From: Macrostomum lignano
Lineage: Eukaryota
NCBI GenBank assembly: GCA_002269645.1
Contig: NIVC01000716.1
Location: 331,426-395,425, forward strand
Direction: 5' to 3'
Length of the DNA: 64,000 nt
Position numbers and translations under genes: made by a program. Shown piece by piece: positions 964-49,921 of this stretch (position 1 is its first letter; each line of letters begins with the position of its first letter). The notes under the pieces are model-generated. The model was not told the DNA's origin and ran no database searches. It saw only the letters and a list, made by a program, of their open reading frames with translations.

Positions 964-1310
964 AGTAGAAGGCGTGAGGGGGCTTTTGGGACAAAATTTT
1001 TCACATCCTCCATAATCCCATTAAATCCATCTATATTATCCCCGACAGAATCAGAAAAAAGGGGGGTCGCACTCGCTCACAAAACATCCTCCATAATCCC
1101 ATTAAATCCATCCATATTATCCCTGACAGAATCAGAGCATAACAGGTGTCCTACTGTTATGCTCTGAGGGTTTATGCTCTGAGCATAATCCACTAACATC
1201 CACCCATAGCATCTTCGAAACAATCAGAAAAGAATCTGCATTCTTCTCCCCACATTCAATCCGCAATGTGCTACCACATCCCAAAGACTTTAAATCATCA
1301 GAGCAGGGTC
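964..1310 (+). repeat. Left TIR of Polinton 1
   Basis: Reverse complement of ~16787-17134; near-identical for ~300 bp, then degenerate. Contains one full and one partial 81-bp unit. Confidence 0.93.
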
Positions 1311-1760
1311 CTTACCCTTTGAAAAAATATAAATAATTTTATTATTCATTAGTAAGAATGATATATTTATTAACGGTTGCACAACTGATAGGATATGTAT
1401 CAACTATTACAAGATTATCAAAAATGGTAGAAAAAACAGACACTATGTAGGATCTGCGTTAGAATTCTTCAACAACATACAGAGCCAGCCTAGCGTTCCT
1501 TTGAGCCAGCAGCTAGATTCTCTAACGCCGTTAGAATTTTCTATGTGAAAATTTGGTGTGCCCAAGCTTATCTTGCGGGAAACTTTTCACATAGAAATTT
1601 CTAACAGCGTTAGAATTTCAAACCCACCGACTGAGTTGCACACAGTACTGAGAAAATTGCTACCCTCCTCTACTTAACCAATCGGCTGTCTCCAGTTGTT
1701 GAATCTACTCTTTGAAATTCTAACGCGTTAGAAAAATTCTAAATGAACTGAATTTAAAAA

Positions 1761-2438
1761 TTACACAACTTTCCACGCAGGATCACTGGCCAAAATTTCT
1801 TCTAGAAACTTCATCTTAGAGTTTAGTTCCCTAATTGGCATTGACACCTGTCTCAAGCCTGGGTAGGTAACAGACAGTTTGTACAGACGAATGTACAAAT
1901 AGCCAGTTGATTCCTGGATGTTTACATTTTTACACAAATGGGCGAACCGCACTTTAACATCTTGTCCAAAGTTCTCGGTGCGATAAGTTTTTAGCAGCCG
2001 CCCAACTTCGAGAATCCAATGTAGACCTCCAATTTGAGTCTTCTTGTATTTTGCTAGAGCCGCCTTCACCCTAGTGATGATGTTCTGCTCGCCAGATGGA
2101 AGCTGGTGATCAACAGCGTTTATCAGCTGATCAGCTAGTGTTACGCGGGATGCGTACAACTTCTCCCTGAATATCTGCAGATCCGCCATCTTCTTCTGCA
2201 GAGCCGCCGCCTTCTTCTCTTCGCTACTCACATTTTGCGCTTCATTCGCTGCGGCGATATCATCAGGGGCCATGGCGAAAAACTCGATTGGTAGGTCGCC
2301 AGTTTCTAGACCGAAAAAGGTGGTTAGTTCCTCTCTTCTTCTTGCTTGTAGATGTGACGGAATATCCTGTAAAACTCTTTGTAGCATGGCACAAAGGCCT
2401 TGCTTATCTGTCAAATGAAGATTCCACTCGACTTCCAT
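1761..2438 (-). CDS. Accessory protein of unknown function, 225 aa (Polinton 1 left arm only)
   Basis: Intact ATG-initiated ORF with a predicted helical character; absent from Polinton 2. Confidence 0.7.
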   Translation of the reverse strand: MEVEWNLHLTDKQGLCAMLQRVLQDIPSHLQARRREELTTFFGLETGDLPIEFFAMAPDDIAAANEAQNVSSEEKKAAALQKKMADLQIFREKLYASRVTLADQLINAVDHQLPSGEQNIITRVKAALAKYKKTQIGGLHWILEVGRLLKTYRTENFGQDVKVRFAHLCKNVNIQESTGYLYIRLYKLSVTYPGLRQVSMPIRELNSKMKFLEEILASDPAWKVV

Positions 2439-3276
2439 TTTCTAAATCTTCTTGTCTTCTAATCTTCTAGTTTGGCGGACAATTTCTTAGATCACTTTCA
2501 GCGTGCTTAAGTTCCTGCAGTCGTCGTTTCTCAGTCGCAGTTGATGGCATATGCGGGGAGAATCAACCCGAGTGTTTCTGCATTTGCTTAAATACAGCTA
2601 TACAGCTAAAAAATTCCAGAAAATTCTTAGACTGTACAATCTTGGAGTCAAGCAGGGAAAAAAATAATCGATATAGCTCAGTGAACGATAGAACATGAGG
2701 CGTGTGAATGTGAGGGTGCTTTAACTAGCTTCTAAGCGATCGATTCCCTCCACCCGTTTGAAGTCCCTGTACATTTCCTTGGTTGATTGGGTTTGTCAAA
2801 GCGGAAAGGAAAGCACGCGTGGAACTTGTACATTCGCAAAATCGATTAGAGGGCTGCGCTCCCTCAGCAAATAGGAGTTACCCCACCCCCTTCTGCTTCT
2901 CAACTTTTCAAAATGCAGCTGTTGCGCTTGGTTAGGGCTGAGAATAATAGTTAACCCTTCCCGACTCAAGCGCCTCTCTCTACCCCGCCCCATATCTTCA
3001 TACCGTATAGACCAACAAGGCGGGCCACATTCCGAGGCCAAATCGGCGGGCCGAGGCCAACTCGGCGGGCCAACTGGCCTCGCAATTTGGCCAATAATCA
3101 ATATCAATCAAGGAATCCCAAGCAGTCCATGCATGCCAATGGCGGTGAAGCGGTTGACTTTTTTTCATTTTCTGCTCTTAGCTCTCTGGAGAATGAGAAT
3201 CTCTCTTGTGCGCAACTCTTTAGGGAATAAAAAACTGTACTTACTCAAATCCACACTTGCTCATGCCCTTCCCGAT

Positions 3277-3777
3277 TCAAGCGCCCCTTTCTACCCCCAG
3301 CTCTTTCAGCAGTCTTCCCAATTTCTTGTTAGGAGCGCACAAAATAAACCCTACTCCCAAGCCTCCGCCCTCTCTTTCCGCACACCCGCCCTCTCTCCCC
3401 AAACACCCACCCTCGGCGCCGACCCCCAACCCCAATTTTGTCTTACTAAAAATAACAGCTTTAACTAGCTTCCGAGCGATCGACTCACGAAATCCGCTTG
3501 AAGCCCCAATATTGTCTAGTCTCTTAAGCATTTCTTTGTCCCACCGATTCTTCTCCTCAGGAAAATCTCTATACTTAACGTCGTGCCACATGCAGACAGA
3601 GTCTAGCTCATTCACAGGCTCATGCCCAGGATTTGGATTATTGTTTTTATCTAACTGTATTTCAAGTGGATTCAAAGGCCCGCAATATTTATAGCCGGGA
3701 AGTGTCCAGCCTTTGTTTGGATGAGGAAGCTTTTCTATCAGTCCATGTGAATCTATTTTACCACCAGAGCGCTGCAT
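3277..3777 (-). CDS. Parvovirus VP1u-like phospholipase A2 protein
   Basis: LPGYKYCGPLN (Ca-binding loop), CMWHDVKY (catalytic HD) and WDKEML. The likely start is ATG 3777, as in the copy at 40323. Confidence 0.88.
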   Translation of the reverse strand: MQRSGGKIDSHGLIEKLPHPNKGWTLPGYKYCGPLNPLEIQLDKNNNPNPGHEPVNELDSVCMWHDVKYRDFPEEKNRWDKEMLKRLDNIGASSGFRESIARKLVKAVIFSKTKLGLGVGAEGGCLGREGGCAEREGGGLGVGFILCAPNKKLGRLLKELGVERGA

Positions 3778-3807
3778 TATTTTATTTAAAATTTTCTTTT
3801 TAAATAA

Positions 3808-4833
3808 ATGACAGATCAGAAACTTAAAAAACTCTACTACAGCGACAAAGGATTCTTTGTAGGCAAAAATGCCGTTAGTAAACTCATGAAGCTGAGTAAG
3901 GAGCCAAAAGCTACAGTAGAAAAATGGCTCTCTAAGCAGGCTGTCTTTCAAGTCTATTTCCCACCAGTAAAATTTGAAAGGCCCCATTTCAGTATTTATA
4001 AACCTAATGAAGCGCACCAAGCAGATCTTTTGTTTCTCCCCAACGACTCAGGCTACAAGTATGCTCTTAAAATTATTGACATTGCTTCCAGATATAAGGA
4101 AGCTCGCCCACTCAAGACGAAGAAGTCAGAGGTTGTTGCCAGCGCACTGCAAGATATTTATAAAAACTCTCCGCTCACATACCCCCAAATCTTTATGACC
4201 GACCCGGGTAAGGAATTCATGGGTGTAGTGAAATCCCTTATGGAAAAGAAAAACACAGAGATTCGCTATGGCAGAACAAACTTGCACAGAGACCAGGCTT
4301 TTGTGGAAAGATTCAATCTAATTCTAGCCAAGAGACTATTCACTAAGCAGACAGCGCAAGAACTCAAACTGAGTGCGGGGCAGTACTATACCAAGTGGAC
4401 AGAAAGACTCCCCACTGTTATAGAGCAACTGAACAATGAAGTCACACGCATGACTGGATTGAAACCATCCCATGCAATTAAACAAGACACTGTCGAACTT
4501 AAGGCATCTCATAGAACACACAACACACACAACACACACAACACAAAACACACCTCAAACTACCCTAAGCTTCCAGGAGTTGAATCACCATACATACTGA
4601 CAAACTCTGAGTTTCTACGCTTTTTATATCTACCGGGAGAGCTAGAGAAAGACACCAAAAGAAGAGCTACAGATCCATACTTCAGCCTTGATGTACATAA
4701 AATAGACAGACATTTTACCTCCGACTCCGGTGACTATTACTTTTTATCTCAAGCCTTTAACCCTAAATCCCCCACGCGGTCATTCACTAGAGCTGAACTC
4801 CTAGTGATACCAGCTGACACAGAAATTAATTAA
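3808..4833 (+). CDS. Retroviral-type (rve) integrase
   Basis: HQADLL / MTDPGKEF / VERFN DDE triad; intact 341-aa ORF. Confidence 0.93.
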   Translation: MTDQKLKKLYYSDKGFFVGKNAVSKLMKLSKEPKATVEKWLSKQAVFQVYFPPVKFERPHFSIYKPNEAHQADLLFLPNDSGYKYALKIIDIASRYKEARPLKTKKSEVVASALQDIYKNSPLTYPQIFMTDPGKEFMGVVKSLMEKKNTEIRYGRTNLHRDQAFVERFNLILAKRLFTKQTAQELKLSAGQYYTKWTERLPTVIEQLNNEVTRMTGLKPSHAIKQDTVELKASHRTHNTHNTHNTKHTSNYPKLPGVESPYILTNSEFLRFLYLPGELEKDTKRRATDPYFSLDVHKIDRHFTSDSGDYYFLSQAFNPKSPTRSFTRAELLVIPADTEIN

Positions 4834-4849
4834 AATATTAAAATAAAAA

Positions 4850-5296
4850 ATGACAAAGATTGAAACCAGAACCATCAATAAACTCAATAAAATCATTGAA
4901 TCAAAGAAACCAGGTATTATATCAATTAAATGTGCCAAAGTAAAAATCGATCCCACGCAGCAAATACTTCAGTGTAATGAGCAAAGACACAGTATCACAG
5001 ATGAAAAGTCAGGAGGAATCCTACCATTAGCAGCTCTTATTCCGATCATTGCAGGCGCTGTAAGTGCCGCAGGTGGTGTAGCTGGAGGTGTAGCAACTGC
5101 TGTTAAAGCTGGGAATGATAGAGCCCACCAGCTGGAATTGCAAAAGATTGCAAGAGACAAAGGTATAACAATTAAGGCAGGAGAGGGCTGCCCCGATCGT
5201 GATGATTGTGAGAATGAAAATTCTATAAGCAAGTCTGACATTGTCAAAGCCATCATGACACTGCACAATGCTGGGTTTACAATAATGCGCATGTGA
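4850..5296 (+). CDS. Small core protein with adenovirus pX-like hydrophobic segment
   Basis: SGGILPLAALIPIIAGAVSAAGGVAGG resembles adenoviral pX (GGILPLLIPLIAAAIGA); conserved at 41386-41853. Confidence 0.7.
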   Translation: MTKIETRTINKLNKIIESKKPGIISIKCAKVKIDPTQQILQCNEQRHSITDEKSGGILPLAALIPIIAGAVSAAGGVAGGVATAVKAGNDRAHQLELQKIARDKGITIKAGEGCPDRDDCENENSISKSDIVKAIMTLHNAGFTIMRM

Positions 5297-5419
5297 TGAG
5301 GTTTAAAACCCCACTTTATCCAGCTTCATAAACCTAACGCTACTGATAGGATGTAGAAACAGTTCAACTTTTCTATCAGGGTAGTAACCCTCAAAAAATT
5401 TTTTATTTTAGAGAAAAAA

Positions 5420-8400
5420 ATGCCAAAAGCTAATCCAGCAAAAGATTTAGTCAACAAACATTTTTCAAAAGGCGTCTCATTTCAAGACAAAAGTAATTCA
5501 CTAAGAGAAGCATGCAAACAAAAGTTCAACACCGACCCTGGTCACCTGGGAAGCTATGAAAAACAGTTGGAAATCATCCAACAATTAGAATCCAACCAGT
5601 ATGCGCCTATACGAGTACAAAATCCTGCAAAGGAACACCAAGAGAGGAGTCGCAACTTAGTTAACAAATATGAAACTCTCACTGGTGAAAAAGCAAAGTA
5701 CCCACAAAATAAGCAGGAACAAGAGAAATTAGAGCAATTAATCCATTTAAAAGAGTCGGAGCTTGCCACTGAAGAGATTAATTTTGCACAGAGGAAGTTT
5801 ACAGAACATTACATAGAGTACACAATCCCAATTAACGGCACCACGGCACCACCGCAAACATCTACGACTATAAAGACAGCATCCAATCAGTTGTTGATCA
5901 CACACTCAAAACACGCAAGACCTTTAAACTACAGATATCATTCAAGATTGCGTTTTATATGCCTGCAAAACCTACTGAGCATCTCGAGTATTACATGACA
6001 ACAAAGGCAAAGCCATTCACCCCTACAGACACACTGGATCCTTTCCTTCAAGATGTCACTAAGAAAATTGAAGCGTTTACATCCAGAGGTTCCGGATGGG
6101 TCGTAGGGGGGATTCAAAGAGCGACTATCATGGTCATGAAATATGACCCACTTAAAGCCTCCCTTATCTAGAGCTCCCGCATAAGCTAGCCGGCAAAAAA
6201 GCTTGCATAAATGTTAAAAATAAAGACAATTGCTGTGCTCTATGGGCAGTTCTTCTGCACTTCTTTATGATAGTGTCCTCACCACCCCGAAAGAACCTCA
6301 AATTATCAAAATTATTTCAACTACTATCTCATCGAATGCGAAAAGAAGGGAATCAGGTTTGACAAAGGAGGCTTGGCGATCTCTCAGATCCCAAAGCTAG
6401 AAGAAGTGTTTAATAACAAAATTAGAATCACAGTCTTTGAGTGGAGTGAAAAAACTGAGAAAGTTCAACCGGTCAGATGTAGCAAAGACGTTTTAGATCC
6501 TGAGGGGAAAAGGCGGACTGAAGTGGATCTTCTAGTGATTGGTAATTTACTAGAGGAGGCTCACTATGTTTGGATTAAAGACTCATTCACAAGCAGTTGA
6601 ATAATCATCACGAGGCTGTTGCCATCTGCCGCTTGTGCCTTAAGCATTACAGTGGACCTGAGCGCTTTGAAAAACTAGCAGAGCATGAATTATCATGCGA
6701 GGATCACCCGACAAACTGCTCTCTTCCTTCAGCTGAAGAGAAGTATCTCCGGTTTAAGAACTATCACAAGATGGAGAAGCTCCCATTTGTTGTATATGCT
6801 GATTTCGAATGCTCAATCGTGCCAAAAACTCAAAAACAAACTCCAACTCAAAAACAAACTCAAACTCAAAAACATGTCCCCAATTCAGTAGCATATGCCT
6901 TTATTAATACAAAAGGACTTGTTGAGTATAATTTTTTCTTTGGAGAGCAGTGTGTGGAGCAGTTTATTGCCAGAATGTTAGAGTTGCAAAAAGTTATTAG
7001 CACCCTTCAACCTGTTCCAATAATGATGACTGAGGAGGATGAAAGCAATTTCCTATCAGCAACTCATTGTCACATCTGCAGGAAACAGTTAACTTGCACT
7101 AATATTAAAAACCTGACCGTTAGAGACCACTGCCACTATACTAGGAAATTTAGAGGTGCAGCGCATAACACCTGTAATCTAAAGCTAAAATCGAACATTC
7201 ATGATCTAACGATATTTTGTCACAACGCAAAGAACTATGACATGCATTTAATAGTTGAAAAAATCGGCATGATTCCAGACATACACCTTGATTGCATCGC
7301 AGAGAACAAGGAGAAGTTTAAGTGTGTTGATATTAAACAGGATAATTCAGGTAAAGGTAAAATAAGACTGAAGGATTCATATCAATTTCTAGCTGCCAGT
7401 CTAGACGAACTAAGCAAGAATCTAAAAGATGAACAATGTACATATACAAAGATGTTTGCAAGTAAAATTAACAATACTGATGAATCATTTAAACTTTTAA
7501 GAAAGAAATGCTTCTACCCCTATGAGAATATTACTGGGTATCACGTATTTGAAGAAGGTTTACCACCACAGGAGAAGTTCTTTTCAAAGCTAACAGACTC
7601 TGGAATCTCTGACAAAGACTATGAGCACGCGAAGCATGTTATAATTACTTTAATTGTCAAAACTTCTTCCAGTATCACCTGCTTTACCTCTTCACAGATG
7701 TGTTTCTGCTGGCCGATGTGTTTGAAACCTTCAGATATACCTGGTACACAGCATATGGCCTCGATCCAGCACATTATGTGTCTCTGCCTGCCACTAGCTG
7801 GGAATCTTTGCTTAAAATGAAATGGGATCAAGATCCAGATTGGTACATTGAACTTCTTACAGACATTGACATGTACAATTTTGTCGAATCGTCAAAGCGA
7901 GGGGGGATCTCAATTTGCGTTAACAGGTATGCAAAAGCAAACAATCCCTACATTGAATCTTACAATAAGGAGCAGCCCTCAAACTACATTACTTACTTGG
8001 ACGCTAATAATCTCTACGGGTGGGCGATGAGTCAAGATCTTCCAGTTAGAGATTTTCGATGGCTACCCTCATCAGAATTTAAACGGGACTTTTCATTGGC
8101 TGCCATTTATGAAGTTGATGTTTACATTCCACCAGAGCTTCACGACTATTTCTCTGACTTTCCACCCTTCCCAGAGAACATCAAGTGCCCGAAAATAATC
8201 GAAACTCCCAATGATAATAATGGAACTTGGCACCTGTCAGGAACAGAAAAAGAACATACAGAGAAACTAACACAGAATCTAAACAACAAGACACGTTACA
8301 AAATCCATTACAAACTGCTTCAATATTTTATCTCACTTGGTTGCAGGGTCACCAAAGTTCACAGGGCTCTTACATTTACAGAGGAAGCGTGGATGAAACC

Positions 8401-9278
8401 CTACATTGATAAGAACACCCAGTTTAGGACCAAAGCAACCAACGACTTTGACAAGAACCTCTTTAAGTTAGCCAACAACTCTGTCTATGGCAAGACTCTT
8501 GAGAATGAGCGGAAAAGAACAAACTGAAACTTGTTACCTCATCAGAGCCTGTGTTATTCAGGCAAATATGTCAAAGCCAACATTCAAAGAACTCCATATC
8601 TTTAATAGCTACTTAGGTGTGATCATATTTTACAAAACCAAGGTGACGCTGCGCAAGCCGATCTATACAGGTGTCACTGTTCTCGACGAATCAAAACGTC
8701 TGATGTACCAGTTCTTCTATGGCATGAAGCAGCAGTACAAGGATAAAATGAAACTCTTGTACACTGACACAGACAGTTTTATTATGGACATTCAAACAGA
8801 AGACATTTATCAGGACATGCTGCAGCAAAAAGATTTGTTTGACTTGTCTGAGTATGATGAATCTTGCAGGACACAGAATGGCGATCAAGTGTTTGACGCC
8901 ACTAACAAGAAAGTGATTGGGAAAATGAAGGACGAGATTGCTGGTGACATAATCACTGAATTCATTGGGTTGAGAGCAAAGTCCTATTTTATAAAATGTG
9001 AGTCGTCAGACCCAATTAAAAAATCAAAGGGAATTCCGAAACGTGTGGTTAGGAAGGAAATTAATGAAGCTGAATACAGAGACGCCTTGAATTGCAACAA
9101 AAAGACATCACATGAGTTCTCAAAGCTACAATCCAAAAACCATATTATTCACACAATTCAGCAAAAGAAGATTGGGCTGTCAGGTGCAGATAACAAGAGA
9201 TTCATTTTTGATGACAATATCAACAGTCTATCGTTCGGGCATTGGAGGTTAGGTTTAGGTTTAGGAGGTGGAGGTTAG
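5420..9278 (+). pseudogene. Protein-primed family B DNA polymerase, several frameshifts
   Basis: VYADFEC (Exo I), RDHCH...AHNTCN endonuclease VII-like insert, HNAKNYD, LDANNLYGWAM, KLANNSVYGK, YTDTDS and LRAKSY motifs, spread over ORFs 5420, 5959, 6373, 6597, 7700 and 8487. Confidence 0.95.
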
Positions 9279-9330
9279 GTTTAGGAGGTGGAGGTTAGGT
9301 TTAGGAGGTGGATATTGGGTTTAGGTTTGA
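9244..9330 (+). repeat. G-rich ~21-bp minisatellite containing TTAGG at the pPolB 3' end
   Basis: ggaggttaggtttaggaggt repeated about 3-4 times; a degenerate equivalent lies at 45804-45895. Confidence 0.8.
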
Positions 9331-9357
9331 GAGAAAGTTTAATAAACCTCACAAAAA

Positions 9358-9759
9358 ATGACGACAAATAACTCTCTTGAAGATTTGGCTAATGAACTGG
9401 AAATCCCAAACTTTAGAGGAATATTTATGAGGGACACTCTGCCTGATTTTCCTCTAAGAAAGGAATGCGGCATCATGAACTTTGACACCACTGATAAGCC
9501 AGGATCTCATTGGGTTTGCTGGGTGATTGATCCCGATCGCAAGCACAAGTGTTATTACTTCGATAGCTATGGGACGGCAGTACCAGAAGAGCTAAGAAAT
9601 TATATGAAGGGGAAAAATAATAAAAAAATTTACCACTCAGACTTTATTCTCCAAGGTCTTAGCAGTGATATTTGCGGTGAGTTGTGCATGACTGTTTTGT
9701 ATGCAATGACCAAAACACGAAAGACCTACAAGGAAATTATTCTTGGCTGTGTTTCATAA
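9358..9759 (+). CDS. Adenain-type cysteine protease
   Basis: GSHWVC (His), YFDSYG (Asp), LQ...SDICG (Gln, Cys); intact 133 aa. Confidence 0.92.
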   Translation: MTTNNSLEDLANELEIPNFRGIFMRDTLPDFPLRKECGIMNFDTTDKPGSHWVCWVIDPDRKHKCYYFDSYGTAVPEELRNYMKGKNNKKIYHSDFILQGLSSDICGELCMTVLYAMTKTRKTYKEIILGCVS

Positions 9760-9802
9760 GGGTTCATTGTGCATTTCTCGTTGTCCTTCTTTCCACATAA
9801 TG

Positions 9803-10495
9803 TTAAAGAACTTTCTCGAGTTCATTTCTCAGCTGACTCATGTCATCAGTACCGACCATGTTCAAGTTCATTCGAATTGATTGTTCATAAAGATCCTGAA
9901 TGGTTTTGAACTCATCCTCTGAAATGAACTTATCCTCTATTGCCCTTGAAATGTACCCTATGATTGATGTGTGCACCCCTTTCTCTTTTACTTGCTTCTC
10001 CTGTAGCTGCTTTAGCTTTTTTCGCCTGTTTCGCGCTAATGCTCCAGTAATTGCTGAAATAAGTCCACATGCAGCACCCACAGAGCCGAGAGGGATTGCG
10101 ATTGGGGCTGTGATGACTGGCAACGTTGAGACAGCTGCAGCAGATCCAGATAGAACAGACACAGATCCTAGAATCATATTTAAATAAAGGTAAATATCAA
10201 CATGAAGTATTATTTGAGTATTGCTGAATCATATTGCTGTAGAATCATATTGCTGTAGAATCATATTGCTGTAGTCAAAAAATTTACAGTGGCTGTCATA
10301 GCGCTTAATTTTCTTTGTGTTGTGGAAAATATTTTTTTCAAGATCATCGCGCATTTTTTGAATCTCCACCAGTCGAAACTGTTGAGAGTTACAAGTAATA
10401 ACAGGGTAGAGTTTTTGTTGCTCATATTGGGGTGCACTAGGTGCACTAGGTGTTGTGGGAGCGTTCGGATCATAAAGAGAATTTTGAGCATCCAT
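9803..10495 (-). pseudogene. Membrane protein with N-terminal PSAP and LYPVI motifs, disrupted
   Basis: ORFs 10229-10495 and 9803-10177 together match 46344-47053. It is broken by a triplicated 16-mer (aatcatattgctgtag) and a short AT-rich insert. Confidence 0.8.
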
Positions 10496-10526
10496 TTTTT
10501 AGGGAATTTTTTAAAAAAATCGGCAA

Positions 10527-10965
10527 CTAGTTGGTGGTGGTTAGATTTGTTTTACGGTTGATTGCTTCGTCTGCAGTGACGGCAACAGGTCTCTGAATCT
10601 GCCTATTCATTATCTGTGAGCTCCATTCTACGCATGATCTCAAACAAGTCGGTTGGATCACTTGTTTCCCTTGTGGTCTGTGGTGCCTCTTCAGCGTCAA
10701 TGTTTTTGAGATTATGCAAGCGTTCAAGACGACCGATTCTTCTCACCGATTTCTGCCATTCGGTAAAAACTAAATCTACAAAGACTTTATTTGCAGTAAT
10801 TATTACTTTGATTTGATCATGCAACGCTGTTGACTGAGTCATGAACTCTTCTAAATTCCTCACTTTACCTGTGTTGGTTGCGACGTTTTCTTTAATTCTA
10901 TCATGCAACGCTGTTGACCGAGTCATGAACTCTTCTAAATTATTTACTTTAGCTGTGTTTGTGAA
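10527..10965 (-). pseudogene. 5'-truncated paralog of the coiled-coil gene, specific to Polinton 1
   Basis: FTNTAKVNNLEEFMTRSTALHDRIK... matches the C-terminal half of 11001-11735; the segment is absent from Polinton 2. Confidence 0.7.
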
Positions 10966-11000
10966 AAAAATCCCTAGAAAAAAATAAAAAAATTATAAAA

Positions 11001-11735
11001 CTACCCAGTTGAAAGATCTGTTTTCTTTTTGATAATTTCATCTGCAGAAATGACCGGACGAGCAGCAGATTCTGCTTCATCAATAGCAATGTCACGAAGA
11101 TTGAGTGTTCTCTCCAGACGATTAAGCCTCCTTATTATTTTACCCCAAGAGCTATACATTCCGTTTAGATAGCTACTGTGTGATACATCGTTTCTCTTTA
11201 GTGCTTCAAGTTTTTCTTTAATTCTATCATGCAACGCTGTTGACTGGTTCATGAACTCTTCTAAATTCCTCACTTTAACTGTGTTGGTTGCGACGTTTTC
11301 TTTAATTCTATCATGCAATGCTGTTGACTGGTTCATGAACTCTTCTAAATTATTGACTTTAGCTGTGTTTGTGAAAACTCCTCCTTCAAGAATACGCATC
11401 CGTCTATCAATGGAATTTCCCAGAAGATTAACTGATGATCTCAAGCCGTTGATTAGCGAGACTATCGAAGTTATTTCTGACCTTAGTTCATTAGTTGCGT
11501 TTAACAACGGCACATAAAGCTTATCACTTTCAAACTTCTGTCTAGCTACTTTAAGCCTGAGATCTTCCATGTTTATTTGCAACTGGTGCATGGAGCGCTC
11601 TAGGGTTTTCAGTCTGTTTTTATTCAGTTTGATATCTGGGATCTCCTCATCAGTGTTAATGTAGCGCTTATCAAGGAAGGAAGTTGTGAGAGTGCTGTTG
11701 CTTGTAGTTGACTCACCTGCAAAATTAATAGACAT
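11001..11735 (-). CDS. Coiled-coil protein with an internal 29-aa (87-bp) duplication
   Basis: Intact 244-aa ORF with NLEEFMNQSTALHDRIKE twice; ortholog at 53818-54504. Confidence 0.8.
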   Translation of the reverse strand: MSINFAGESTTSNSTLTTSFLDKRYINTDEEIPDIKLNKNRLKTLERSMHQLQINMEDLRLKVARQKFESDKLYVPLLNATNELRSEITSIVSLINGLRSSVNLLGNSIDRRMRILEGGVFTNTAKVNNLEEFMNQSTALHDRIKENVATNTVKVRNLEEFMNQSTALHDRIKEKLEALKRNDVSHSSYLNGMYSSWGKIIRRLNRLERTLNLRDIAIDEAESAARPVISADEIIKKKTDLSTG

Positions 11736-12552
11736 TTTTTAAATGAAAAATTAAAGGTAAAATTCTTTTCTCCTTATTAATCATGACAAACTGATAAGGT
11801 TGGTTCCACTTTTCATAGCATATGTTAACAAATTCCTCCTGTGATATTGTTCTGTTAGAGTTCTTAGCTGGATATGTAATGTGAGCTGGGGCAATTACCT
11901 CATTATAAAATCGTTTCAGTCGATCCTGTGGTATGGTTGGGAAAAGGAGAATCAAATTACAGTTACCTCTAATTGTTTTATTTAGCAGTTCAAACCAGTT
12001 TTGGGCAATGTAAATAACATTGCAATTATTATGTCTACCCCGGGTGAAATAATTTTCTATCTGTTTCTGGGGACCGGTCATGCAGTCATCGAAGACAATC
12101 AGGTGCTTTCTCCCCTTTTCTAGTTCATCAGGTTGAGGTAAGAGTTTAGTTTTAGGATCTATCTGTGGATCTCCATAAGTGAAAACTTTAATGTTTTGCC
12201 ATTTTTCATTGTCTGGGATGTGCTTTGCGTATTCAGTGGCTACAACTTCCGGGTTGCTGTTGAGGTCTTTTTGATGTCTAAAACATTGAATAATATCTTC
12301 CTTGTTGAGTTTGTTCTGTAGGCCCGCTACTAGCATTTTATACTCATCTTGATACAGAGTGGGTGAATAGATATGTAGTGTGTCATAATCGAGGAATCCA
12401 GGTCTGAGGAGCATGTTAAAAACTCTGAAGGTTTTCCCTGACCCAGATGAGCCAACAACAATGCATCGGAAGTGCCCTGGAATTATCTCGTTGTGAGCAA
12501 ATTTTATCTGATTGCGTGTCCAGTGGGGATGAAAGTCGTTTGTGAAGTCCAT
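11725..12552 (-). CDS. A32/FtsK-like genome packaging ATPase
   Basis: Walker A GSSGSGKT, Walker B LIVFDDC, and TRGRH motif; intact 275 aa. Confidence 0.93.
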   Translation of the reverse strand: MDFTNDFHPHWTRNQIKFAHNEIIPGHFRCIVVGSSGSGKTFRVFNMLLRPGFLDYDTLHIYSPTLYQDEYKMLVAGLQNKLNKEDIIQCFRHQKDLNSNPEVVATEYAKHIPDNEKWQNIKVFTYGDPQIDPKTKLLPQPDELEKGRKHLIVFDDCMTGPQKQIENYFTRGRHNNCNVIYIAQNWFELLNKTIRGNCNLILLFPTIPQDRLKRFYNEVIAPAHITYPAKNSNRTISQEEFVNICYEKWNQPYQFVMINKEKRILPLIFHLKNVY

Positions 12553-12699
12553 TTTTTATGTAAAAAACTTTTTCTTTTTAAACTTGTGTATTTAAGACGC
12601 GTGTGTCTTTTTTCGGGTTGTGTGTGTCTTTTTTCGACTAGTCCTACATCCGACTAGTCCTACACCCTCACACCTCTTTTACCGTCAGGGTGCACCAAA

Positions 12700-13079
12700 T
12701 TAGTCAAATTTAAAACCGCCTCCTTTCTTATATTCAGCTCTCATCTTTGCGTAGATGGCTGGATCGACACTATCTGCACTCGGTGCAAGGGGTTGAATAT
12801 CTGGTATTGATTTCCGGGTTTCATTAACCGTATCTTTAATCTTTTTGGCTGCTGTGGCTACACTGCCAGCCGCTTCGGCAACGTTCTTGATGTTCTCTTT
12901 GTTCTCTCCAATGACCTTAAAAATCTTGGCCCCTGAGCGATCAAATCGGCAAGGCCATTCCCAGAGCGTTCTTTTCTTGGATAGTGGCCTGCAGGGAAAA
13001 GTCCAGATCCACGTTTAATGAGATTAAGTTCCTCTTTGTCATAGTATTTGTCAATGTCTTTTTCGAAAATAATTGGCAT
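12700..13079 (-). pseudogene. Amphipathic-helix core protein (pVI/cupiennin-like), one frameshift
   Basis: MPIIFEK...RGSGL...SGNGLADLIAQG, then a shifted frame ending KKGGGFKFD*; ortholog at 55516-55923. Confidence 0.65.
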
Positions 13080-13095
13080 CTTTTTAAATAGAAAT

Positions 13096-14309
13096 TTATT
13101 TTTTGTTGAACCGCGAAAGCAGAAGCTCTCTCGCCCTCTTATCGATGTATTTTCTCTCAAGCATTTCATTGAGGATGTTGACAAATTCTTTTCTATTCTC
13201 GTCTTTCATTCCGGTCTTTGCCGCTCCTAGAAGAACAGCTAACCGCTTGTAGAATTCAGGCATGCCTTTTCCGGAAGAGCTTGGAGGTGATTCGAATGAT
13301 TGGTCAGAGGAGGAACTGTCATGTGGCGCTTGTCTTTGCTGAGGTGTGAATACTCTGTCATTGATTCGCTTCATTCGTTCTGGGGAGAGCCGCTCTAATT
13401 GTCGCCATTCATCTGGGCGCTGGTTTCTGTACTGGGAAATCTCATTTAACCCTGCTTTTTCAAGCGCTTCTAGTACTTGTTCGGGTGTGATTTGTTGCTG
13501 TGGCGGTGGAGGTTGTTGTGGTTGTGGTTGTGTTTGTGGTTGCTGCTGTTGTGGTTGTTGTAGTTGTTGTTTTGGTTGCTGCTGTTGTGGTTGCTGCTGT
13601 TGTGGCTGTGGTTGTTGTGGTTGTTGTCTTATGACCTCTTCTTGATCTGGCAAACCAAACCATTGTTGAAAGTATTTGTATTTTTTAAACCTGTTCAAGA
13701 CAATCCCGTTTTCATGTGAAATTTTCAAAACACCGTCGTTCTTGAGCATATCTATATCCCTCTCTAAAGCGAAGGTAACAAGATCTTTGTAATTTTCGAA
13801 CTGCTTTTTAGACGTTTTCTCTAGATTTTTAGTCATGTAGTCGAGTAAACTTTGAGTGAAGGGGATTCGTTTAGTTTCTGCGCCTTTATTGATTAAAATA
13901 TTTCCTTTGTCACTTCAATGTTGTAATCCGCCGGTTCCCCGGTAATATTTTTTCGCCAGGCGCTAATTCCAAAAATATATTTTCCATCATCCAATACGGG
14001 GCCAAAAAAGTTATCCGTCACTTTCATCTGCACTGGTTGTCCTGGTTCCTGAGCCTGTGGTTGTCCCGGTGAAGATGGTATTTTACCCAATGTGTTTTGC
14101 AAGTGGCTCTCTTGAATATCATCAACTGCTTCCTTCACAGTGTCGAGGTTTTTCTTCGCTTCTGTGTATCCGGGTTTGTGAAATTCAGTGGCTGCTTGGA
14201 CGAATTCATTGTAGGATTGTTGTTCCTTATTTATTAGCCCGGTAACTCGTTTCTCTGCTTTTGCTAGCTTCTCCAATTCAGATATCTGCTGTGTACTTTT
14301 TCGCTTCAT
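13096..14309 (-). pseudogene. Q-rich Polinton protein, frameshift near 13890
   Basis: ORFs 13893-14309 and 13096-13836 equal the single 418-aa ORF at 55907-57163. The C-terminal RLAVLLGAAKTG...EFVNIL..ML segment resembles a motif common in Mavericks. Confidence 0.78.
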
Positions 14310-14339
14310 TTCTTATTTTATTTTATTTTTAGTTAAAAA

Positions 14340-15623
14340 ATGAACGACCCACTGACACCAGTTTTCTACAAAATTAACAAGCCTATTTTGAGTGATGATA
14401 GCACAACCAAAGCGCCTCAGGTAAGAATTCCCAGTCAGGAAAATCAGAATGAAACTAATCTTGGTCCTGGCCAAACACTGACATTCACATACAATGGATG
14501 TTCGTCTTTGGTTAGTGTGCACAGTTTTAAGAGCGGCTTCCATATGACATTTCAATTCAAGACAAAAGGTGGTGCGGATGCGGCTCGTGCTAACGTTGAC
14601 AAGCATGATGCGGATGTGGCTCTGATTAGTAACTTTTGGGCGTACATGTTCAAGGAGTTTTGTGTATCGAATGGGAGCACTGAGTTGGAGCGAATCGCCA
14701 ACTTTGGAATTGTCTATGACGCTCATTGTTTGATCGAGAATCCTGATTTTATTCAATTGGGAAGTGGTGCGGGTTTTATTGCAGATGAAAAAGAATGAGA
14801 TATCAATGACAGTGGCTATAAAAATAGGAAGAAGAGATACAACTATGCATTGCAAGGTGCTGATGATGCTGCTAAAACCCGCTGTATCGGTCTGTTGATG
14901 TATTTGTACCACTGAGATTCATGAGTGGATTCTGTAATACATTTAATCGACTGACTAGCAACTTTAGCTACACATTTAGACTGACTAGAGATGATCGCAG
15001 TAGAGTGTTGTGGACTGGGGCGGACCACACTGGGATGGCTGTGAAGCTAACCGGAATCGAGCTGTATTTGGAAGTCATTGAGCCGAAGACCGCACTAAAA
15101 GCGGACTATCTTAAGGCAATAGAGAAGGACATTGATGTTGCATACACGGCCTACATGTGTCGAGATGAGCGAAACGAAACTAGAACAAACATCTGCATTA
15201 AAGAGGGATCATGCAGCAATCCAAGGTATATCATTATTAATGAGAAACCCAAATAGCATTATACGCTACATGCATGGAGACGTGCGGTCCATTCAGCATG
15301 AAATCAGTGATAATCTTTACCCTGCACTGCCACAAAATGGAGATTTCAGTCAGAACAAGATTAGCAAATTTTACAGCGAGTTGGTCGACTTGGCTGTGAA
15401 AGAGAACAATGGAATTGCTATCACTGCTCTTCAATATGGAACTCTATATCCGATGTTTGGCGCTGATGTGTCTGCCAGACAAATGCCTACTGATAACAGC
15501 CCTGTGAATATCGTGACTAACATTGAGAGGACTACCGCAACACCCGTGGACCTGTACATTATCTATGCATTTGAGAGGAAGGTGAAGCTTAACATGATCA
15601 ACAATTCATCCAGTAAAGTTTAA
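14340..15623 (+). pseudogene. Major capsid protein (probable double jelly-roll), nonsense codon at 14796 and a frameshift
   Basis: Colinear with the intact 428-aa ORF at 57194-58480; size and position beside the minor capsid gene fit the MCP. Confidence 0.8.
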
Positions 15624-15646
15624 ATATTTTTTTTGTGGGTGAAAAA

Positions 15647-16510
15647 ATGGAAGCGATTGCTGAAAGACTAAACAACATTGTTTCACACTCTAAGGAGAGC
15701 ATTCCTGTTACAATAACTGGGCGAATTAATGACTCAAACGGGATATTTGTTGAAAAATTAGAGCAGGCGATTCGCCTGGATCCAGGTGCTAATTACCATG
15801 TCTATCTTAACGACTTCACTGGTTGGTCAAACGTTCCCAATGTGATAGCAGCAAATAATAAGTTTTATTACAAATGGAAAGGTGCAGCAGCAGACCCTGT
15901 GGTATTCCATGTGAGCACGCAAAGTGTGGATACCTACAATAACTTCCTAGAAAATGTCTTTACTAAGAGAGGCCATTTTGAGACACCTGATGCGAGTAAG
16001 CCAGAGAAGAAACTGTTCCCTGTCAAACTAACCTATGATCTCACTGTAATGAGAGTGGTCATGCAAGTTCACAAAGATGCGGAGGTTGAGTTTAAAGATG
16101 ACACTTGGTATAGGGAACTGGGATTCGAGAAGAAAGTTTATAAGGCAGAATCCGCGGCGCGGACCGCCACTCAAGCATCGGGGACCGTTAAAATGGCCCG
16201 GGAAAATGTAAGCGGTTTGTTCTTAGCACCCAATATTGCAGACATTGTAAAGGGTTTAAATATTCTAATCAGAAGCAATCTCAGTCTTGATTGGGTATTT
16301 AAGGGAAAGCGAACGAATATTTTGTACAATATCTCCAACTCTGTAGCTGGAGGACAGATGGTGGTAGAGAAACCAAATCCAGTGAAAAGAGTTGTATTGA
16401 GTAATAAGGAGATTCACGAGATTGTGCTACAGTTTGAGACTGAAGATGGGGTAGGTGTTGATTTCAACGGTGAAGAGTTTGTATTGACGTTAATCATTGA
16501 GAGAATGTAA
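15647..16510 (+). CDS. Minor capsid protein (penton-like)
   Basis: Intact ~287 aa; LEQAIRLD..NYHVYL.DF and C-terminal EIVLQFETEDG.GVDFNGEEF pattern typical of Polinton mCP; directly follows the MCP. Confidence 0.8.
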   Translation: MEAIAERLNNIVSHSKESIPVTITGRINDSNGIFVEKLEQAIRLDPGANYHVYLNDFTGWSNVPNVIAANNKFYYKWKGAAADPVVFHVSTQSVDTYNNFLENVFTKRGHFETPDASKPEKKLFPVKLTYDLTVMRVVMQVHKDAEVEFKDDTWYRELGFEKKVYKAESAARTATQASGTVKMARENVSGLFLAPNIADIVKGLNILIRSNLSLDWVFKGKRTNILYNISNSVAGGQMVVEKPNPVKRVVLSNKEIHEIVLQFETEDGVGVDFNGEEFVLTLIIERM

Positions 16511-16514
16511 GAAA

Positions 16515-16751
16515 TCACAATTGCTTAATGATTTCTGCAAAGTTATAATAGCTGTCGTAATCGTTAATGACTACTCCATACTTATGAAACCAGTGTCTTT
16601 GAAGAGCTAGATTAATATTAGGGACATTGATATCAACGTTGGGCCAATATTTTCTCATGTACTCGCTGCATTCCTTCTTGCATTGGTACTTGCTCTTGTA
16701 ATTAGGCTCGTGCGCTTTGTAATAAGAACCTGGAGAGATGATTGGAAGCAT
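16515..16751 (-). CDS. Conserved 78-aa subterminal protein of unknown function
   Basis: Clear orthologs at 37813-38055 and 59905-60147 with the frame retained despite nucleotide divergence. Confidence 0.7.
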   Translation of the reverse strand: MLPIISPGSYYKAHEPNYKSKYQCKKECSEYMRKYWPNVDINVPNINLALQRHWFHKYGVVINDYDSYYNFAEIIKQL

Positions 16752-16786
16752 TTTTATTGAAAATTTAATTTTTTTCGGAGGATGAG

Positions 16787-17134
16787 CACCCTGCGCTGAT
16801 AATTTAAAGTTTTTGGGATCTGGTTTCGCCGCTTCGGATTGAATGTGGGGAGAAGAATGCAGATTTTTTTCTGATTGTTTCGAAGATGCTATGGGTGGAT
16901 GTCAGTGGATTATGCTCAGAGCATAAACCCTCAGAGCATAACAGTAGGACACCTGTTATGCTCTGATTCTGTCGGGGATAATATGGATGGATTTAATGGG
17001 ATTATGGAGGATGTTTTGTGAGCGAGTGCGACCCCCCTTTTTTCTGATTCTGTCGGGGATAATATAGATGGATTTAATGGGATTATGGAGGATGTGAAAA
17101 ATTTTGTCCCAAAAGCCCCCTCATGCCTTCTACT
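16787..17134 (-). repeat. Right TIR of Polinton 1
   Basis: Ends ...ctcatgccttctact; inverse of 964-1310. Confidence 0.93.
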
Positions 17135-18513: not shown

Positions 18514-19364
18514 ATTGAAGTGGGTTGCAAATGCATGCTGTAGCAGCTTGGAGGGGAGTTGATGAATGGCTGTTCGCAGCTAATCTAAACCTTTAATTCT
18601 TTGCATGATGCTGGAGGGTTTTTGAGTGAGTCAGAGAGAATAGAAGACAGAGGTGATGAAGATATGGAAGAAGCCATGATTCTTAGTCATCGTGATAACA
18701 ATGCTGTCTACAATTCGAATACATTCAGTCCCACAGGGTGAAGGAGAATTTTTTTGCAATTCAGAAGTAATTCTATTGTGCAAAATCTGCATCAGAATTT
18801 ATTCATGTTTCAGCAAGCCAATAGAAATGTTGAGTGCTGCTTTTCATTGTTGCAGAGTTGACAAGTGGCAGTTTTGTTATAGCTGACTGAATATCTAAAG
18901 CATTTCCTAGAAATAATGGTTTACTGAAGGCCATTTTATATATATATATATATTACTATCGTTGAATTGGATGACACTTTCATATTGTATATACCTGAAA
19001 TTGCATTAAATTGACCCGTGAATCCAACCTTTCTCATGGTTTTAGAGCTGGAATCGTGAAAATTGCACTTTTTCAAAATATTTGAAAATTACAAAAAATC
19101 GCTGTTTTCAGACCATTTTCACCTGTTTTTAGTCATTTTCACCTGTTTTTAGTGATTTTCAAAATGAGTGAGGGCATGAGGGCGAGGGCACCCCCCTTTT
19201 TAAAAAGTATAAAAATTCCGGAAAATCTGTGTTCTGTGAAATATACCACAGGCCAATGCCCCCCACATGCCCTCACCCTCAACACCCTCACTCACAGATA
19301 TATGTATATTTATATATTTTTATATTTATCACACACACACTTGCAACTCTGACCTCCCGGTAGT

Positions 19365-19463
19365 AGTAGTAGTATGTTATAAGGGGCTGACTCATCCAGC
19401 GAGCTGGCGCGTAATGCGCCCGAGCGATAAGTGTGGCGCAGCCCCTTATAACATACTACTACT
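19365..19463. mobile_element. 99-bp MITE-like element with 25-bp perfect TIRs beginning AGTAGTAGTA
   Basis: agtagtagtatgttataaggggctg ... cagccccttataacatactactact. Confidence 0.75.
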
Positions 19464-21400
19464 GCCGCTCTATTACCTCCTAAAGAAAGGGGTTCAGTGG
19501 AAATGGACTGTCGTTCACTCAAGTGCGTTCTCCCAACTGAAAGCTGCTGAAACGGAAGGTCGAATCGTTTCTTATGATATAAAAAGGCCGTTGTTTCTAA
19601 CCTGCGACGCTTCTCAGAGTGGAGTCGGATTTGTGCTGTCCCACGACACGAACCAAAAAGAATTTGTATGGCTGGGAAGCAGAGTTTTGACCAAGGCTGA
19701 GGCCAACTACGCCAACATTGAGCGGGAGGCTCTTGCAATTATCGAGGGTGTAAAATATTTTCATCAATTTCTGGCAGGCCGTCATTTTACAATCATCTCT
19801 GATCACAGACCTTTGCAGTACATCTTCTCTACAACGAAAGTTCCTGACCGAGTTTCTGCGAGACTCCAGAGATGGGCATTGCTGCTCAGATCCTATGACT
19901 ACACTGTCACTTATTCAAAAGGAGACACCATGCTCGCAGCAGATACTCTGTCCAGAATTCCTTCAACAAACGCTTCTACTTCGTTTTCAAATTTTGATGT
20001 CAATCTGCTAGAGGTAAACTCTCTCGTAGAATTTTCTTCTTCTGGGACAATTCTTCGGCGTGTCGCCAACACCAGAGACCCTGAAATTGATACTATCAAG
20101 AAGTTTGTTACTCAAGGTTGGCCAAGCTACATTTCTAAACAGCTGCTTCCGTACACCAAATCCAAGGCGGAATACTCCATTCAAAACGGGATTCTGTTCA
20201 AAGGGATCCGAATCGTGCCTCCAAAGTCCATGCGCAGAGAAATTCTTCAAATTCTTCACGAGAATCATCCGGGCATTGTGCGCATGATCAGACTAGCTCG
20301 AGAGTACTTCTGGTGGCCTTACATTGACGCCCAGATCAATAGCTTCGTTCAAAGGTGTCCTTCCTGCCAACTAAATTCGAGAAAGCGAACAAATGCAAAT
20401 CTGCATTCATGGGAAGATGCAAAGTTCTTCTTCGAACGTGTTCATCTGGACATAGCATATTTCAAGGAGAAACACTTCTTGGTTCTCATCGACTCCTTCT
20501 CTCGGTGGATTGATGTACATCAGCTGTCCAATCTCACAGCCAACTCTCTTATTCCAGCATGCAGACGAACATTTAAGTACATGGGACTTCCAACGTGCAT
20601 TGTGACTGACAATGGAACCAATTTTCGATCAAAAGAGTTCGCAGAATTTCTCAAGAAGAATCTAATTAACCATGTCCTAACACCACCTGGTCATCACCAG
20701 TCAAATGGGATTGTGAAGAGAGCTATCCAAGAGTTGAAAGTGACTCTGAAGCAGAACAGTAATGACATAGGTTCCGAATGTGAGAAGGTGTTGATATCAT
20801 TCTGCCTTTCGAAGAACACTACACCGAATTCCGAAGGAGCGATTACTGCTGCACAACTGTTTATGCAACGCCCAAGAACGCGCCTCACTGCAACCTTTAC
20901 AGAATGGGACAAACCGCTAACTACCCCAATTCCTGTCTACATCAACGTAGAAGGAAAGTCAGACAAGGTCCCAGAAGAAATCCAAGGACTTCATGGATCA
21001 AATACCTACTTGGACAGCAAAGGACGGGTTGTCCATGCATCTGATGCAACGCCAAGGACTACAGAGAACTCACAAGAGATTACCTCGCCTGGACCTGCCA
21101 ATGTTGGCAGCAGCAATGATAAGGAAATGGAAACTACGACTCCTGCTGAAGTGGAGACAACCAGCGATCAAAGTCCCGAGTACCAAGTTTCTCGTCGAAG
21201 TCAGAGGCTCCGAAAAGCCACTGATCGGCTGACCTATTCCTGATTTATTTGATCGTTAGACAAAATAGAAAACAGTCATTTATTTCTCTCCAGGTTAATT
21301 GCTAAAATGTGGGGGTGTTGTGTATGAACTTAAGTTCTATGGTTTATGGGTGAAGCCTTATTCATATTTTAAGTATAGCAGCTAGCTACTTCGCTGCGAA
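19464..21400 (+). mobile_element. Gypsy A, 5'-truncated: RNase H and integrase, then PPT and start of 3' LTR at 21316
   Basis: LTCDASQSGVG, YANIEREALA, DHRPL, HxxHPG...CxxC, RVHLD, TDNG and SNG motifs; ggggg|tgttgtg after the ORF. The right boundary is approximate. Confidence 0.85.
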
Positions 21401-46343: not shown

Positions 46344-47053
46344 TCATTGTGCATTTCTCGCCGTCCTTCTTGCCGAATTTCTTGCCGACTTTCTTTCCAC
46401 ATAATGTTGAAGAACTTTCTCGAGTTCATTTCTCAGCTGACTCATGTCATCAGTACCGACCATGTTCAAGTTCATTCGAATTGTTTGTTCATAAAGATCC
46501 TGAATGGTTTTGAACTCATCCTCTGAAATGAACTTATCCTCGATTGCCCTTGAAATGTACCCTATGATTGAAGTGTGCACACTTTCTCTTTTACTTGCTT
46601 CTCCTGTAGCTGTTTTAGTTTTTTTCGCCTGTTTCGCGCTAATGCTCCAGTAATTGCTGAAATAAGTCCACATGCAGCACCCACAGAGCCGAGCGGGATT
46701 GCGATTGGGGCTGTGATGACTGGCAACGTTGAGACAGCTGCAGCAGATCCAGATAGAACAGACACAGATCCTAGAATCATATTGCTGTAGTCGAAAAATT
46801 TACAGTGGCTGTCATAGCGCTTAATTTTCTTTGTGTTGTGGAAAATATTTTTTTCAAGATCATCTCGCATTTTTTGAATCTCCACTAGTCGAAACTGCTG
46901 AGAGTTACAAGTAATGACGGGGTAGAGTTTTTGTTGCTCATATTGAGGTGCACTAGGTGCTGTGGGTGCTGTGGGAGCATTCGGTGCCATTGGGTTTGGT
47001 GCTGTCGGTATTTTAGGTTCAGACTGATCGTATAGAGAATTTTGTTGGGCCAT
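46344..47053 (-). pseudogene. Membrane protein with PTAP/PSAP and LYPVI motifs, one frameshift near 46580
   Basis: IPTAP...APTAPTAPSAP...KLYPVI followed by a long hydrophobic Gly/Ala-rich stretch and a basic tail. Confidence 0.8.

Positions 47054-49889: not shown

Positions 49890-49921
<32 letters not shown>

What the first reader, a model, noticed from the sequence alone, without database searches (positions are those of the whole stretch)
9803..10495. Polinton membrane protein carries tandem retrovirus-type late-domain motifs (element 1 copy)
Seen: N-terminus ...PTTPSAPSAPQYEQQKLYPVI (two PSAP plus LYPxI), then a charged helix, a ~45-aa Gly/Ala-rich hydrophobic segment and a basic RNRRKK stretch. 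Known: P(T/S)AP binds TSG101 (ESCRT-I) and (L)YPxnL binds ALIX in enveloped-virus budding. Inference: an ESCRT-recruiting membrane protein in a virus group regarded as non-enveloped, pointing to vesicle-cloaked egress or membrane remodelling. I do not know of a published description of this for Polintons, but could not check.
Basis: partly seen in the sequence, partly recalled or inferred. Interest (0 to 1): 0.72.

Follow-up and report, generated by a model that had tools for sequence, protein, structure and literature searches.

The report
Polinton membrane protein with budding signals
This is a broken copy of a small gene of a virus-like jumping element, and across its very divergent family the predicted membrane protein keeps the two short peptide signals that HIV-type viruses use to bud, so these elements likely borrow the cell's budding machinery to leave cells wrapped in membrane.

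Summary
The motifs are real (PSAPSAP, LYPVI), but 9803-10495 is not one open frame. An in-frame stop (10229-10231) lies in an 87-bp stretch that other copies lack, so this copy is a pseudogene. The gene sits in a Polinton between adenain and the packaging ATPase, the published position of adintovirus 'GasderminX' (matched by position only). In this genome 59 of 70 copies examined are open through the core, with pN/pS 0.21. Among 123 of 150 distant relatives with a readable N-terminal tail (median core identity 28%), YPx[L/I/V] occurs in 111 (shuffles 3.9) and P[S/T]AP in 55 (shuffles 0.8). Where both occur, either order is seen; reversed motifs are absent. The model is a disordered tail plus a helical hairpin with a hydrophobic tip. 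The motifs therefore very likely bind ALIX and TSG101; binding is untested. Membrane-cloaked egress, as for orbivirus NS3, is the best reading (0.55); a role in entry is the main rival. My literature searches found no description of this for Polintons. This scan noted the same idea earlier in another genome (e1-7768978).

The parts
9803..10495 (-). Interrupted gene for a Polinton hairpin membrane protein (GasderminX-like by position)
   Evidence: family
10430..10450 (-). PSAPSAP: two overlapping P(S/T)AP motifs (TSG101-type), on a 9-bp tandem repeat
   Evidence: enrichment
10397..10411 (-). LYPVI: LYPx(L/I) motif (ALIX-type); Y and P are the only invariant columns of the 117-row alignment A3
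10229..10231 (-). In-frame TGA that ends the 88-aa N-terminal ORF
10169..10255 (.). 87-bp stretch peculiar to this copy: 3x16-bp tandem repeat plus a 39-bp piece (10181-10219) resembling a DNA-transposon terminal repeat; edges uncertain by 12 bp
10034..10177 (-). 48-codon uncharged Gly/Ala/Ser-rich segment, predicted as the tip of a helical hairpin with a Pro-containing turn
10016..10033 (-). Basic RNRRKK stretch after the hairpin
   Evidence: net charge of +3 or more after the segment in 107 of 117 family members
9908..9949 (-). Conserved C-terminal helix-loop-helix (S-x4-D-x2-I-S-x2-E-F)
9358..9759 (+). Neighbour: adenain-like protease
   Evidence: Pfam Peptidase_C5 E 3.6e-4; beside the gene in 29 of 29 other copies
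11725..12552 (-). Neighbour: A32/FtsK-like packaging ATPase
   Evidence: Pfam Pox_A32 E 2.3e-6; within 1.5 kb in 27 of 29 copies
964..17134 (.). Polinton element 1 between inverted repeats 964-1263 and 16835-17134 (integrase, PolB pieces, adenain, ATPase, capsid region, PLA2-like and pX-like ORFs)
46344..47053 (-). Second copy in Polinton element 2: four overlapping-count P(S/T)AP plus LYPVI; frameshifted near codon 157

Best explanation
This is a pseudogene copy of a Polinton gene whose intact product is predicted to sit in a host membrane by a hydrophobic hairpin and likely recruits ALIX and TSG101 through its N-terminal YPx(L/I) and P(S/T)AP motifs, which would let ESCRT wrap and pinch off particles in host membrane. 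Shown: the break in this copy; Polinton context; purifying selection on the core; family-wide motif enrichment in an otherwise unalignable tail. Predicted: disordered tail (1-50), long helical hairpin (51-173), both ends cytosolic (no hydrophobic N-terminal signal visible, basic residues on both sides of the tip). Inferred from established late-domain biology: binding to the ALIX V domain and TSG101 UEV domain, then ESCRT-III/VPS4 scission. Inferred by analogy to orbivirus NS3 only: that the C-terminal part contacts capsids and that the outcome is non-lytic, vesicle-cloaked release. I put ESCRT-adaptor binding at about 0.85 and egress as its purpose at about 0.55.
For: YPx[LIV] in 111 of 123 tails (2000 shuffles: mean 3.9, max 11); [LIV]YPx[LIV] 102; YPxL 85; P[TS]AP 55 (mean 0.76, max 5); both 50 (mean 0.02); reversed P[TS]AP and reversed YPx[LIV] 0; near-misses P[^TS]AP 5 vs 3.9 and P[TS]A[^P] 3 vs 4.4. 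Plain YxxPhi without Pro is not enriched (14 vs 23). The order of the two motifs is 25/25 with spacing -54 to +17 and changes 11 times on a core-only tree (47 rows), as short linear motifs do. In the rest of the same proteins PSAP occurs 2 times and YPx[LIV] 0. In this genome LYP[VI]I is in 70 of 70 copies and P[TS]AP in 67 of 70; core pN/pS is 0.21 over 50 distinct sequences. The host encodes UEV and ALIX V-domain matches over Pfam cut-offs. YPXL/I is named as an ALIX motif in a cited title (reference-list entry only). AF2 model: mean pLDDT 85.6, no secondary structure in 1-50. The same element has PLA2-like and pX-like ORFs that could serve entry. Precedents: BTV NS3 (passages), HAV VP2 (passages), iridovirus TFV (abstract). 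The best viral fold matches are invertebrate iridovirus proteins (E 4e-6 to 4e-5).
Against: No binding or egress data exist. The hairpin is small-residue rich (42% G/A/S) and weakly resembles pore-former and translocator hairpins (AopB E 2.7e-4; RTX N-terminal family in 30 of 117 at E up to 0.1), which suits an entry or pore role. The published proposal lists GasderminX among virion core proteins (passage). No fusogen family was hit among the 20 element-1 ORFs scanned, so re-entry of a cloaked particle is unexplained. 27 of 150 representatives were dropped for tails under 10 aa, core fragments or weak core score, and none of them has either motif before the core (111 and 55 of 150); some may be real losses. 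7 of 123 with tails have neither motif. This lineage has Ile, not the commoner Leu. Retrieval used a profile that included tail columns and only the top 150 of 541 hits were seen, though a core-only E<=1e-9 subset gives 78 of 85 and 34 of 85. The 70 genome copies came from hits ranked by likeness to a motif-bearing query. In Toxoplasma GRA14 the same motif pair proved dispensable for its main function (passages).
Confidence: 0.55

Rival explanations
1. Entry protein. It is packaged in the capsid, released in the endosome, inserts its hairpin to breach the membrane, and uses the motifs to steer or blunt ESCRT-dependent sorting and membrane repair, as adenovirus protein VI uses PPxY.
For: Pore-former-like hairpin. 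GasderminX was proposed as a membrane-active core protein. PPxY in adenovirus pVI acts at entry (start of abstracts). The gene lies in the virion-protein block beside adenain.
Against: This element also carries PLA2-like and pX-like ORFs. Recruiting TSG101 and ALIX to a breached endosome would favour repair, not escape (inference). PPxY is not enriched (6 of 123 vs 3.1).
Confidence: 0.22
2. Non-structural viroporin or host modulator. It oligomerises in membranes of the producing cell; ESCRT binding controls its turnover, its shedding in capsid-free vesicles, nuclear-envelope remodelling or the timing of lysis.
For: Two-helix hairpin like SLATT/2TM effectors (fold rows E 4e-4 to 0.09; SLATT_5 best E 3e-6 in 2 of 117). 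NS3 itself is described as a possible viroporin. GRA14 shows the motifs can serve purposes other than budding.
Against: Two different late-domain types kept across a family at 28% identity is the pattern of budding proteins. Cargo turnover does not need both (inference).
Confidence: 0.15
3. The motifs bind something else: YPx[LIV] as an AP-complex YxxPhi sorting signal and PSAP as a generic PxxP/SH3 site.
For: YPxL formally fits YxxPhi and PSAP fits PxxP (established consensus, recalled). P[TS][^A]P is slightly enriched (14 vs 8.3).
Against: YxxPhi without Pro is under-represented (14 vs 23). Pro at +1 and a hydrophobic residue at -1 are kept (112 of 123). P[^TS]AP is at background.
Confidence: 0.06
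4. Chance matches in a Pro-rich low-complexity tail amplified by repeat slippage.
For: The PSAP copies here arise from a 9-bp repeat and vary 1-4 between copies.
Against: Composition-preserving shuffles never approach the observed counts; reversed motifs score 0.
Confidence: 0.02

Closest known systems
Adintovirus GasderminX / 'Macc' class (Starrett et al. 2021, PMC8502044; Buck et al., PMC11071296)
   Same: Small predicted membrane-active Polinton gene. The Fig. S2 label row places GasderminX beside Adenain (text of a PDF figure), as here.
   Different: Identity was not checked against a named sequence. No gasdermin family or fold surfaced in the listed rows. The papers' main texts contain no 'late domain' and treat the class as core or entry proteins. 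Here the gene co-occurs with a PLA2-like gene, which the paper assigns to the other module class.
Orbivirus NS3/NS3A (bluetongue virus)
   Same: N-terminal late domains, coiled coil, two membrane segments, polybasic motifs; serves a non-enveloped capsid. Similar size is recalled, not from a call.
   Different: NS3 uses PSAP plus PPxY and has a glycosylated lumenal loop; this family uses YPx[LIV] plus P[ST]AP with a short Pro turn. NS3 belongs to a cytoplasmic dsRNA virus. The Pfam match is weak (3 of 117, best E 0.002), so this is analogy, not shown homology.
Retroviral Gag late domains (HIV-1 p6 PTAP + YPXnL, EIAV p9 YPXL, MLV PSAP/LYPAL)
   Same: The same two motif classes, position-independent and combined.
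   Different: There they lie on the capsid polyprotein; here they lie on a separate small hairpin membrane protein.
Iridovirus ESCRT budding (tiger frog virus, PMC4880917) and uncharacterised invertebrate iridovirus proteins (S6DF61, A0A5B8RH66, A0A068QKD3)
   Same: A DNA virus of the same capsid lineage (lineage recalled) that buds through ALIX, TSG101 and NEDD4 (abstract); best structural matches to this protein.
   Different: TFV spreads the three interactions over three proteins. I could not see whether the iridovirus fold matches carry the motifs; identity is 15-19% with high rmsd.
Nematode Maverick fusogen MFUS-1 (Widen et al., 10.1101/2022.07.12.499685)
   Same: Also points to membrane-wrapped Polinton particles.
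   Different: A class III fusogen for entry, described for nematodes; it says nothing on how the envelope is acquired (no 'budding', 'ESCRT' or 'egress' in that text).

Membership tests
Polinton/Maverick (adintovirus) gene | Lies in an element with integrase, protein-primed PolB, adenain, packaging ATPase, double-jelly-roll capsid and terminal inverted repeats | tested here: met
   (capsid hit is in the element-2 counterpart, E 1.6e-4; homologous region)
Adintovirus GasderminX | Position beside adenain in the virion module | tested here: met
   (figure labels as text; layout may be off)
Adintovirus GasderminX | Sequence homology to a protein annotated GasderminX | not testable with these tools
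   No named sequence retrieved; the supplement's GenBank maps and slides were cut or unreadable
Adintovirus GasderminX | Similarity to the gasdermin C-terminal domain | tested here: inconclusive
   Not among listed rows; lists are truncated
Adintovirus GasderminX | pX-like basic C-terminal segment ('typically') | tested here: inconclusive
   Net basic tail in 19 of 117; some genome copies end in Arg-rich tails; no Adeno_PX hit for this gene
Viral late-domain (ESCRT-recruiting) protein | P(S/T)AP and/or YPXnL consensus, conserved beyond chance in a disordered region | tested here: met
Viral late-domain (ESCRT-recruiting) protein | Motif faces the cytosol | tested here: inconclusive
   Predicted from lack of an N-terminal hydrophobic stretch and basic flanks; no topology program or experiment
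Viral late-domain (ESCRT-recruiting) protein | Direct binding to TSG101/ALIX and motif-dependent particle release | not testable with these tools
   Needs experiments
Orbivirus NS3 | Homology (Pfam PF01616 above cut-off) | tested here: not met
   3 of 117 members, best E 0.0022; 2 of 8, best E 0.053

The most novel reading that the evidence does not exclude
Animal Polintons carry a dedicated, NS3-like budding protein that recruits ALIX and TSG101 to export capsids inside host membrane without lysis. This would make quasi-enveloped release a widespread Polinton trait, give a route for soma-to-germline and between-species transfer, and recast 'GasderminX' as an egress factor with possible relatives in iridoviruses.
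Probability: 0.45. Interest if true: 0.85.

Novelty: new variant of a known kind. Interest (0 to 1): 0.66.

Why it matters
How Polintons leave cells is unknown. A recent paper states that whether envelopment extends beyond nematode Polintons 'remains to be investigated' (PMC10748475, passage). Two consensus ESCRT motifs on a conserved accessory gene make that question testable with peptides and a single expressed protein. They also tell virion hunters to look in vesicle fractions rather than only among detergent-resistant capsids. The principle itself (late domains serving non-enveloped capsids) is known from orbiviruses and hepatitis A virus, and the gene is probably already named.

Tried and rejected
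Complex prediction of the host TSG101 UEV exon with the window's first 40 residues gave 'no answer' (score 0.00); not used either way. The ALIX V domain was not modelled because it is split over three exons. Gene neighbourhoods of distant homologs could not be fetched: viral contigs and metagenome contigs returned nothing, so Polinton context is shown only for this genome. Atlas clusters point to molluscs and to Preplasmiviricota and Nucleocytoviricota viruses (leads only). Cluster look-ups of 20 proteins gave only generic names, including one Hydractinia protein. Solved-structure searches gave generic helical matches (BAR, coiled coils; best Z 11.9, below the helical-bundle caution level); no gasdermin row was listed. 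Expression: no RNA holder listed; runs guessed as RNA hold contigs over the gene, which does not show transcription. Intron reading of the 87-bp stretch rejected (ends TA..TG, also skipped in a run of unrecorded kind and in genomic sister copies). Literature searches without a relevant hit: polinton+ESCRT (2 unrelated reviews), polinton+TSG101 (0), adintovirus+ALIX (0), Maverick/Polinton/'late domain' (0 occurrences of the phrase in the 25 listed of 228); term look-ups in PMC8502044, PMC11071296, PMC8097293, PMC10748475, PMC11161782, PMC13348255 and two preprints. Subscription papers, bioRxiv supplements and the cut part of Starrett's supplement (annotation slides, GenBank maps) were not seen and could mention the motifs.

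Full report
Observation. The minus-strand frame starting at 10495 contains PSAPSAP (10430-10450) and LYPVI (10397-10411), a charged helix, a 48-residue uncharged segment and RNRRKK. It is not one ORF: a TGA at 10229-10231 separates an 88-aa from a 124-aa piece. The stop lies in an 87-bp stretch absent from the second copy in the window. Of the scored matches in the genome, only the window matches the stretch over its whole length. Contigs of 3 of 4 runs skip it, depth falls there in all four, and one contig covers 65 bp of it exactly, so it is likely a real, copy-specific insertion and not an intron. The element-2 copy is frameshifted near codon 157.

Context. The gene lies in a Polinton bounded by inverted repeats, with integrase, PolB pieces, adenain, an A32 ATPase, and PLA2-like and pX-like ORFs; the capsid hit is in the homologous part of element 2. 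The genome (764 Mb, likely an animal; inferred) gave 150 scored matches of 541 candidates. I read 70 of them: the top 30 and 40 picked from lower ranks. 59 are open through the core, all 70 have LYP[VI]I, and 67 have 1-4 P[TS]AP; the three without are copies whose start I could not read in frame. Core pN/pS is 0.21 over 50 distinct sequences. Adenain and PolB flank the gene in 29 of 29 loci checked.

Family. Word-based searches gave 5, 16 and 7 relatives. A full profile scan gave 541 representatives at E<=0.001, of which the best 150 were returned. I rescored them with a core-only profile and kept 123 with a tail of at least 10 residues; 27 were dropped as short-tailed, fragmentary or weak, and none of these has a motif before the core. 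In the 123 tails (median 26 aa; median core identity 28%) YPx[LIV] occurs in 111, YPxL in 85, P[TS]AP in 55 and both in 50, against shuffle means of 3.9, 1.9, 0.76 and 0.02. Reversed motifs score 0, PPxY is at background, and most near-miss variants are at or near background. Plain YxxPhi is not enriched. Order is 25/25 and spacing is free. PSAP presence changes 32 times and order 11 times on a core tree (no shuffled-label control was run). Y and P of the motif are the only invariant columns in a 117-row alignment, which I built from members with tails. A possible retrieval bias remains, but the core-only E<=1e-9 subset gives 78 of 85 and 34 of 85.

Structure. AlphaFold2 on a naturally open copy gives an unstructured tail (1-50), a hairpin of two long helices (51-108, 118-173) with the hydrophobic segment at its tip, and two short C-terminal helices (pLDDT 85.6, pTM 0.67). 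Across 117 members the best 45-residue window has median hydropathy 1.58, no charges, 42% G/A/S, a central Pro in 108, and basic flanks. The best viral fold matches are uncharacterised invertebrate iridovirus proteins (E 4e-6 to 4e-5), then SLATT-like two-helix proteins of giant viruses. Solved structures give only generic helical matches. Weak sequence resemblance to AopB and RTX hairpins shows a pore-former-like character.

Mechanism. P(S/T)AP binds TSG101 and YPXnL binds ALIX; such motifs are combined and exchangeable (PMC8402826, passages). YPXL/I is given as an ALIX motif in a cited title (reference entry only). The host has UEV and ALIX V-domain genes. Binding of these adaptors is therefore very likely (about 0.85) but untested. 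The purpose is less sure. The layout matches bluetongue NS3, which bridges a non-enveloped capsid to ESCRT (PMC6949946, passages), and an iridovirus buds through the same adaptors (PMC4880917, abstract); I give egress 0.55. Entry (0.22) rests on the pore-like hairpin, the published core-protein proposal and adenovirus pVI (abstract openings). The separate PLA2-like and pX-like genes in the same element weaken it. A viroporin or modulator role takes 0.15. GRA14 (PMC8700025, passages) warns that such motifs can bind yet be dispensable. No fusogen was found among the ORFs scanned, which leaves re-entry of cloaked particles open.

Known versus new. The gene is probably the published GasderminX (PMC8502044, passages and Fig. 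S2 text), matched by position only; similarity to gasdermin did not surface here. Enveloped Mavericks were proposed for nematodes, with envelopment elsewhere stated as open. My searches (and the term look-ups listed under Tried and rejected) found no report of late domains or ESCRT use in Polintons; subscription papers and some supplements were not seen. I had formed and tested the reading, including the NS3 analogy, before seeing it, and it is not independent support.

Verdict. The feature is real at family level and broken in this copy. It is a new variant of a known kind: a late-domain membrane adaptor, here in an integrating DNA virus lineage. Interest 0.66.

Noticed in passing
window 3277-3987 (-) and 39868-40323 (-); 4850-5296 (+): Both elements carry a parvovirus-type PLA2-like ORF (Pfam E 1e-13) and a pX-like ORF together with the GasderminX-like gene, although PLA2X and GasderminX were described as hallmarks of different virion modules.
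   Followed up: partly
window 10181-10219: A 39-bp piece matches a repeat found as inverted pairs 130-1800 bp apart at many places in the genome, like the terminal repeat of a small DNA transposon; its remnant lies in the stretch that breaks this gene.
   Followed up: partly
window 47000-53800: Element 2 is about 6 kb longer than element 1 here, with low-GC ORFs (48040-49353, 50744-53308; one weak Transposase_21 hit) that look like nested DNA transposon insertions.
   Followed up: no
window 10603-11735 (-): Coiled-coil ORF with 84-bp internal repeats between this gene and the ATPase, present in 29 of 29 other copies; a fibre or cement protein candidate.
   Followed up: no
window 19267-33357: LTR retrotransposon ORFs (gypsy-like and Bel/Pao-like) lie between the two Polintons.
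   Followed up: no
G000: The family has at least 150 scored copies (541 candidates), many with open frames; host TSG101-like and ALIX-like loci each appear on three contigs, suggesting uncollapsed haplotypes or duplication.
   Followed up: no
P0110, P0121: Two related family members with tails but neither motif form their own branch; a natural control for motif function.
   Followed up: no
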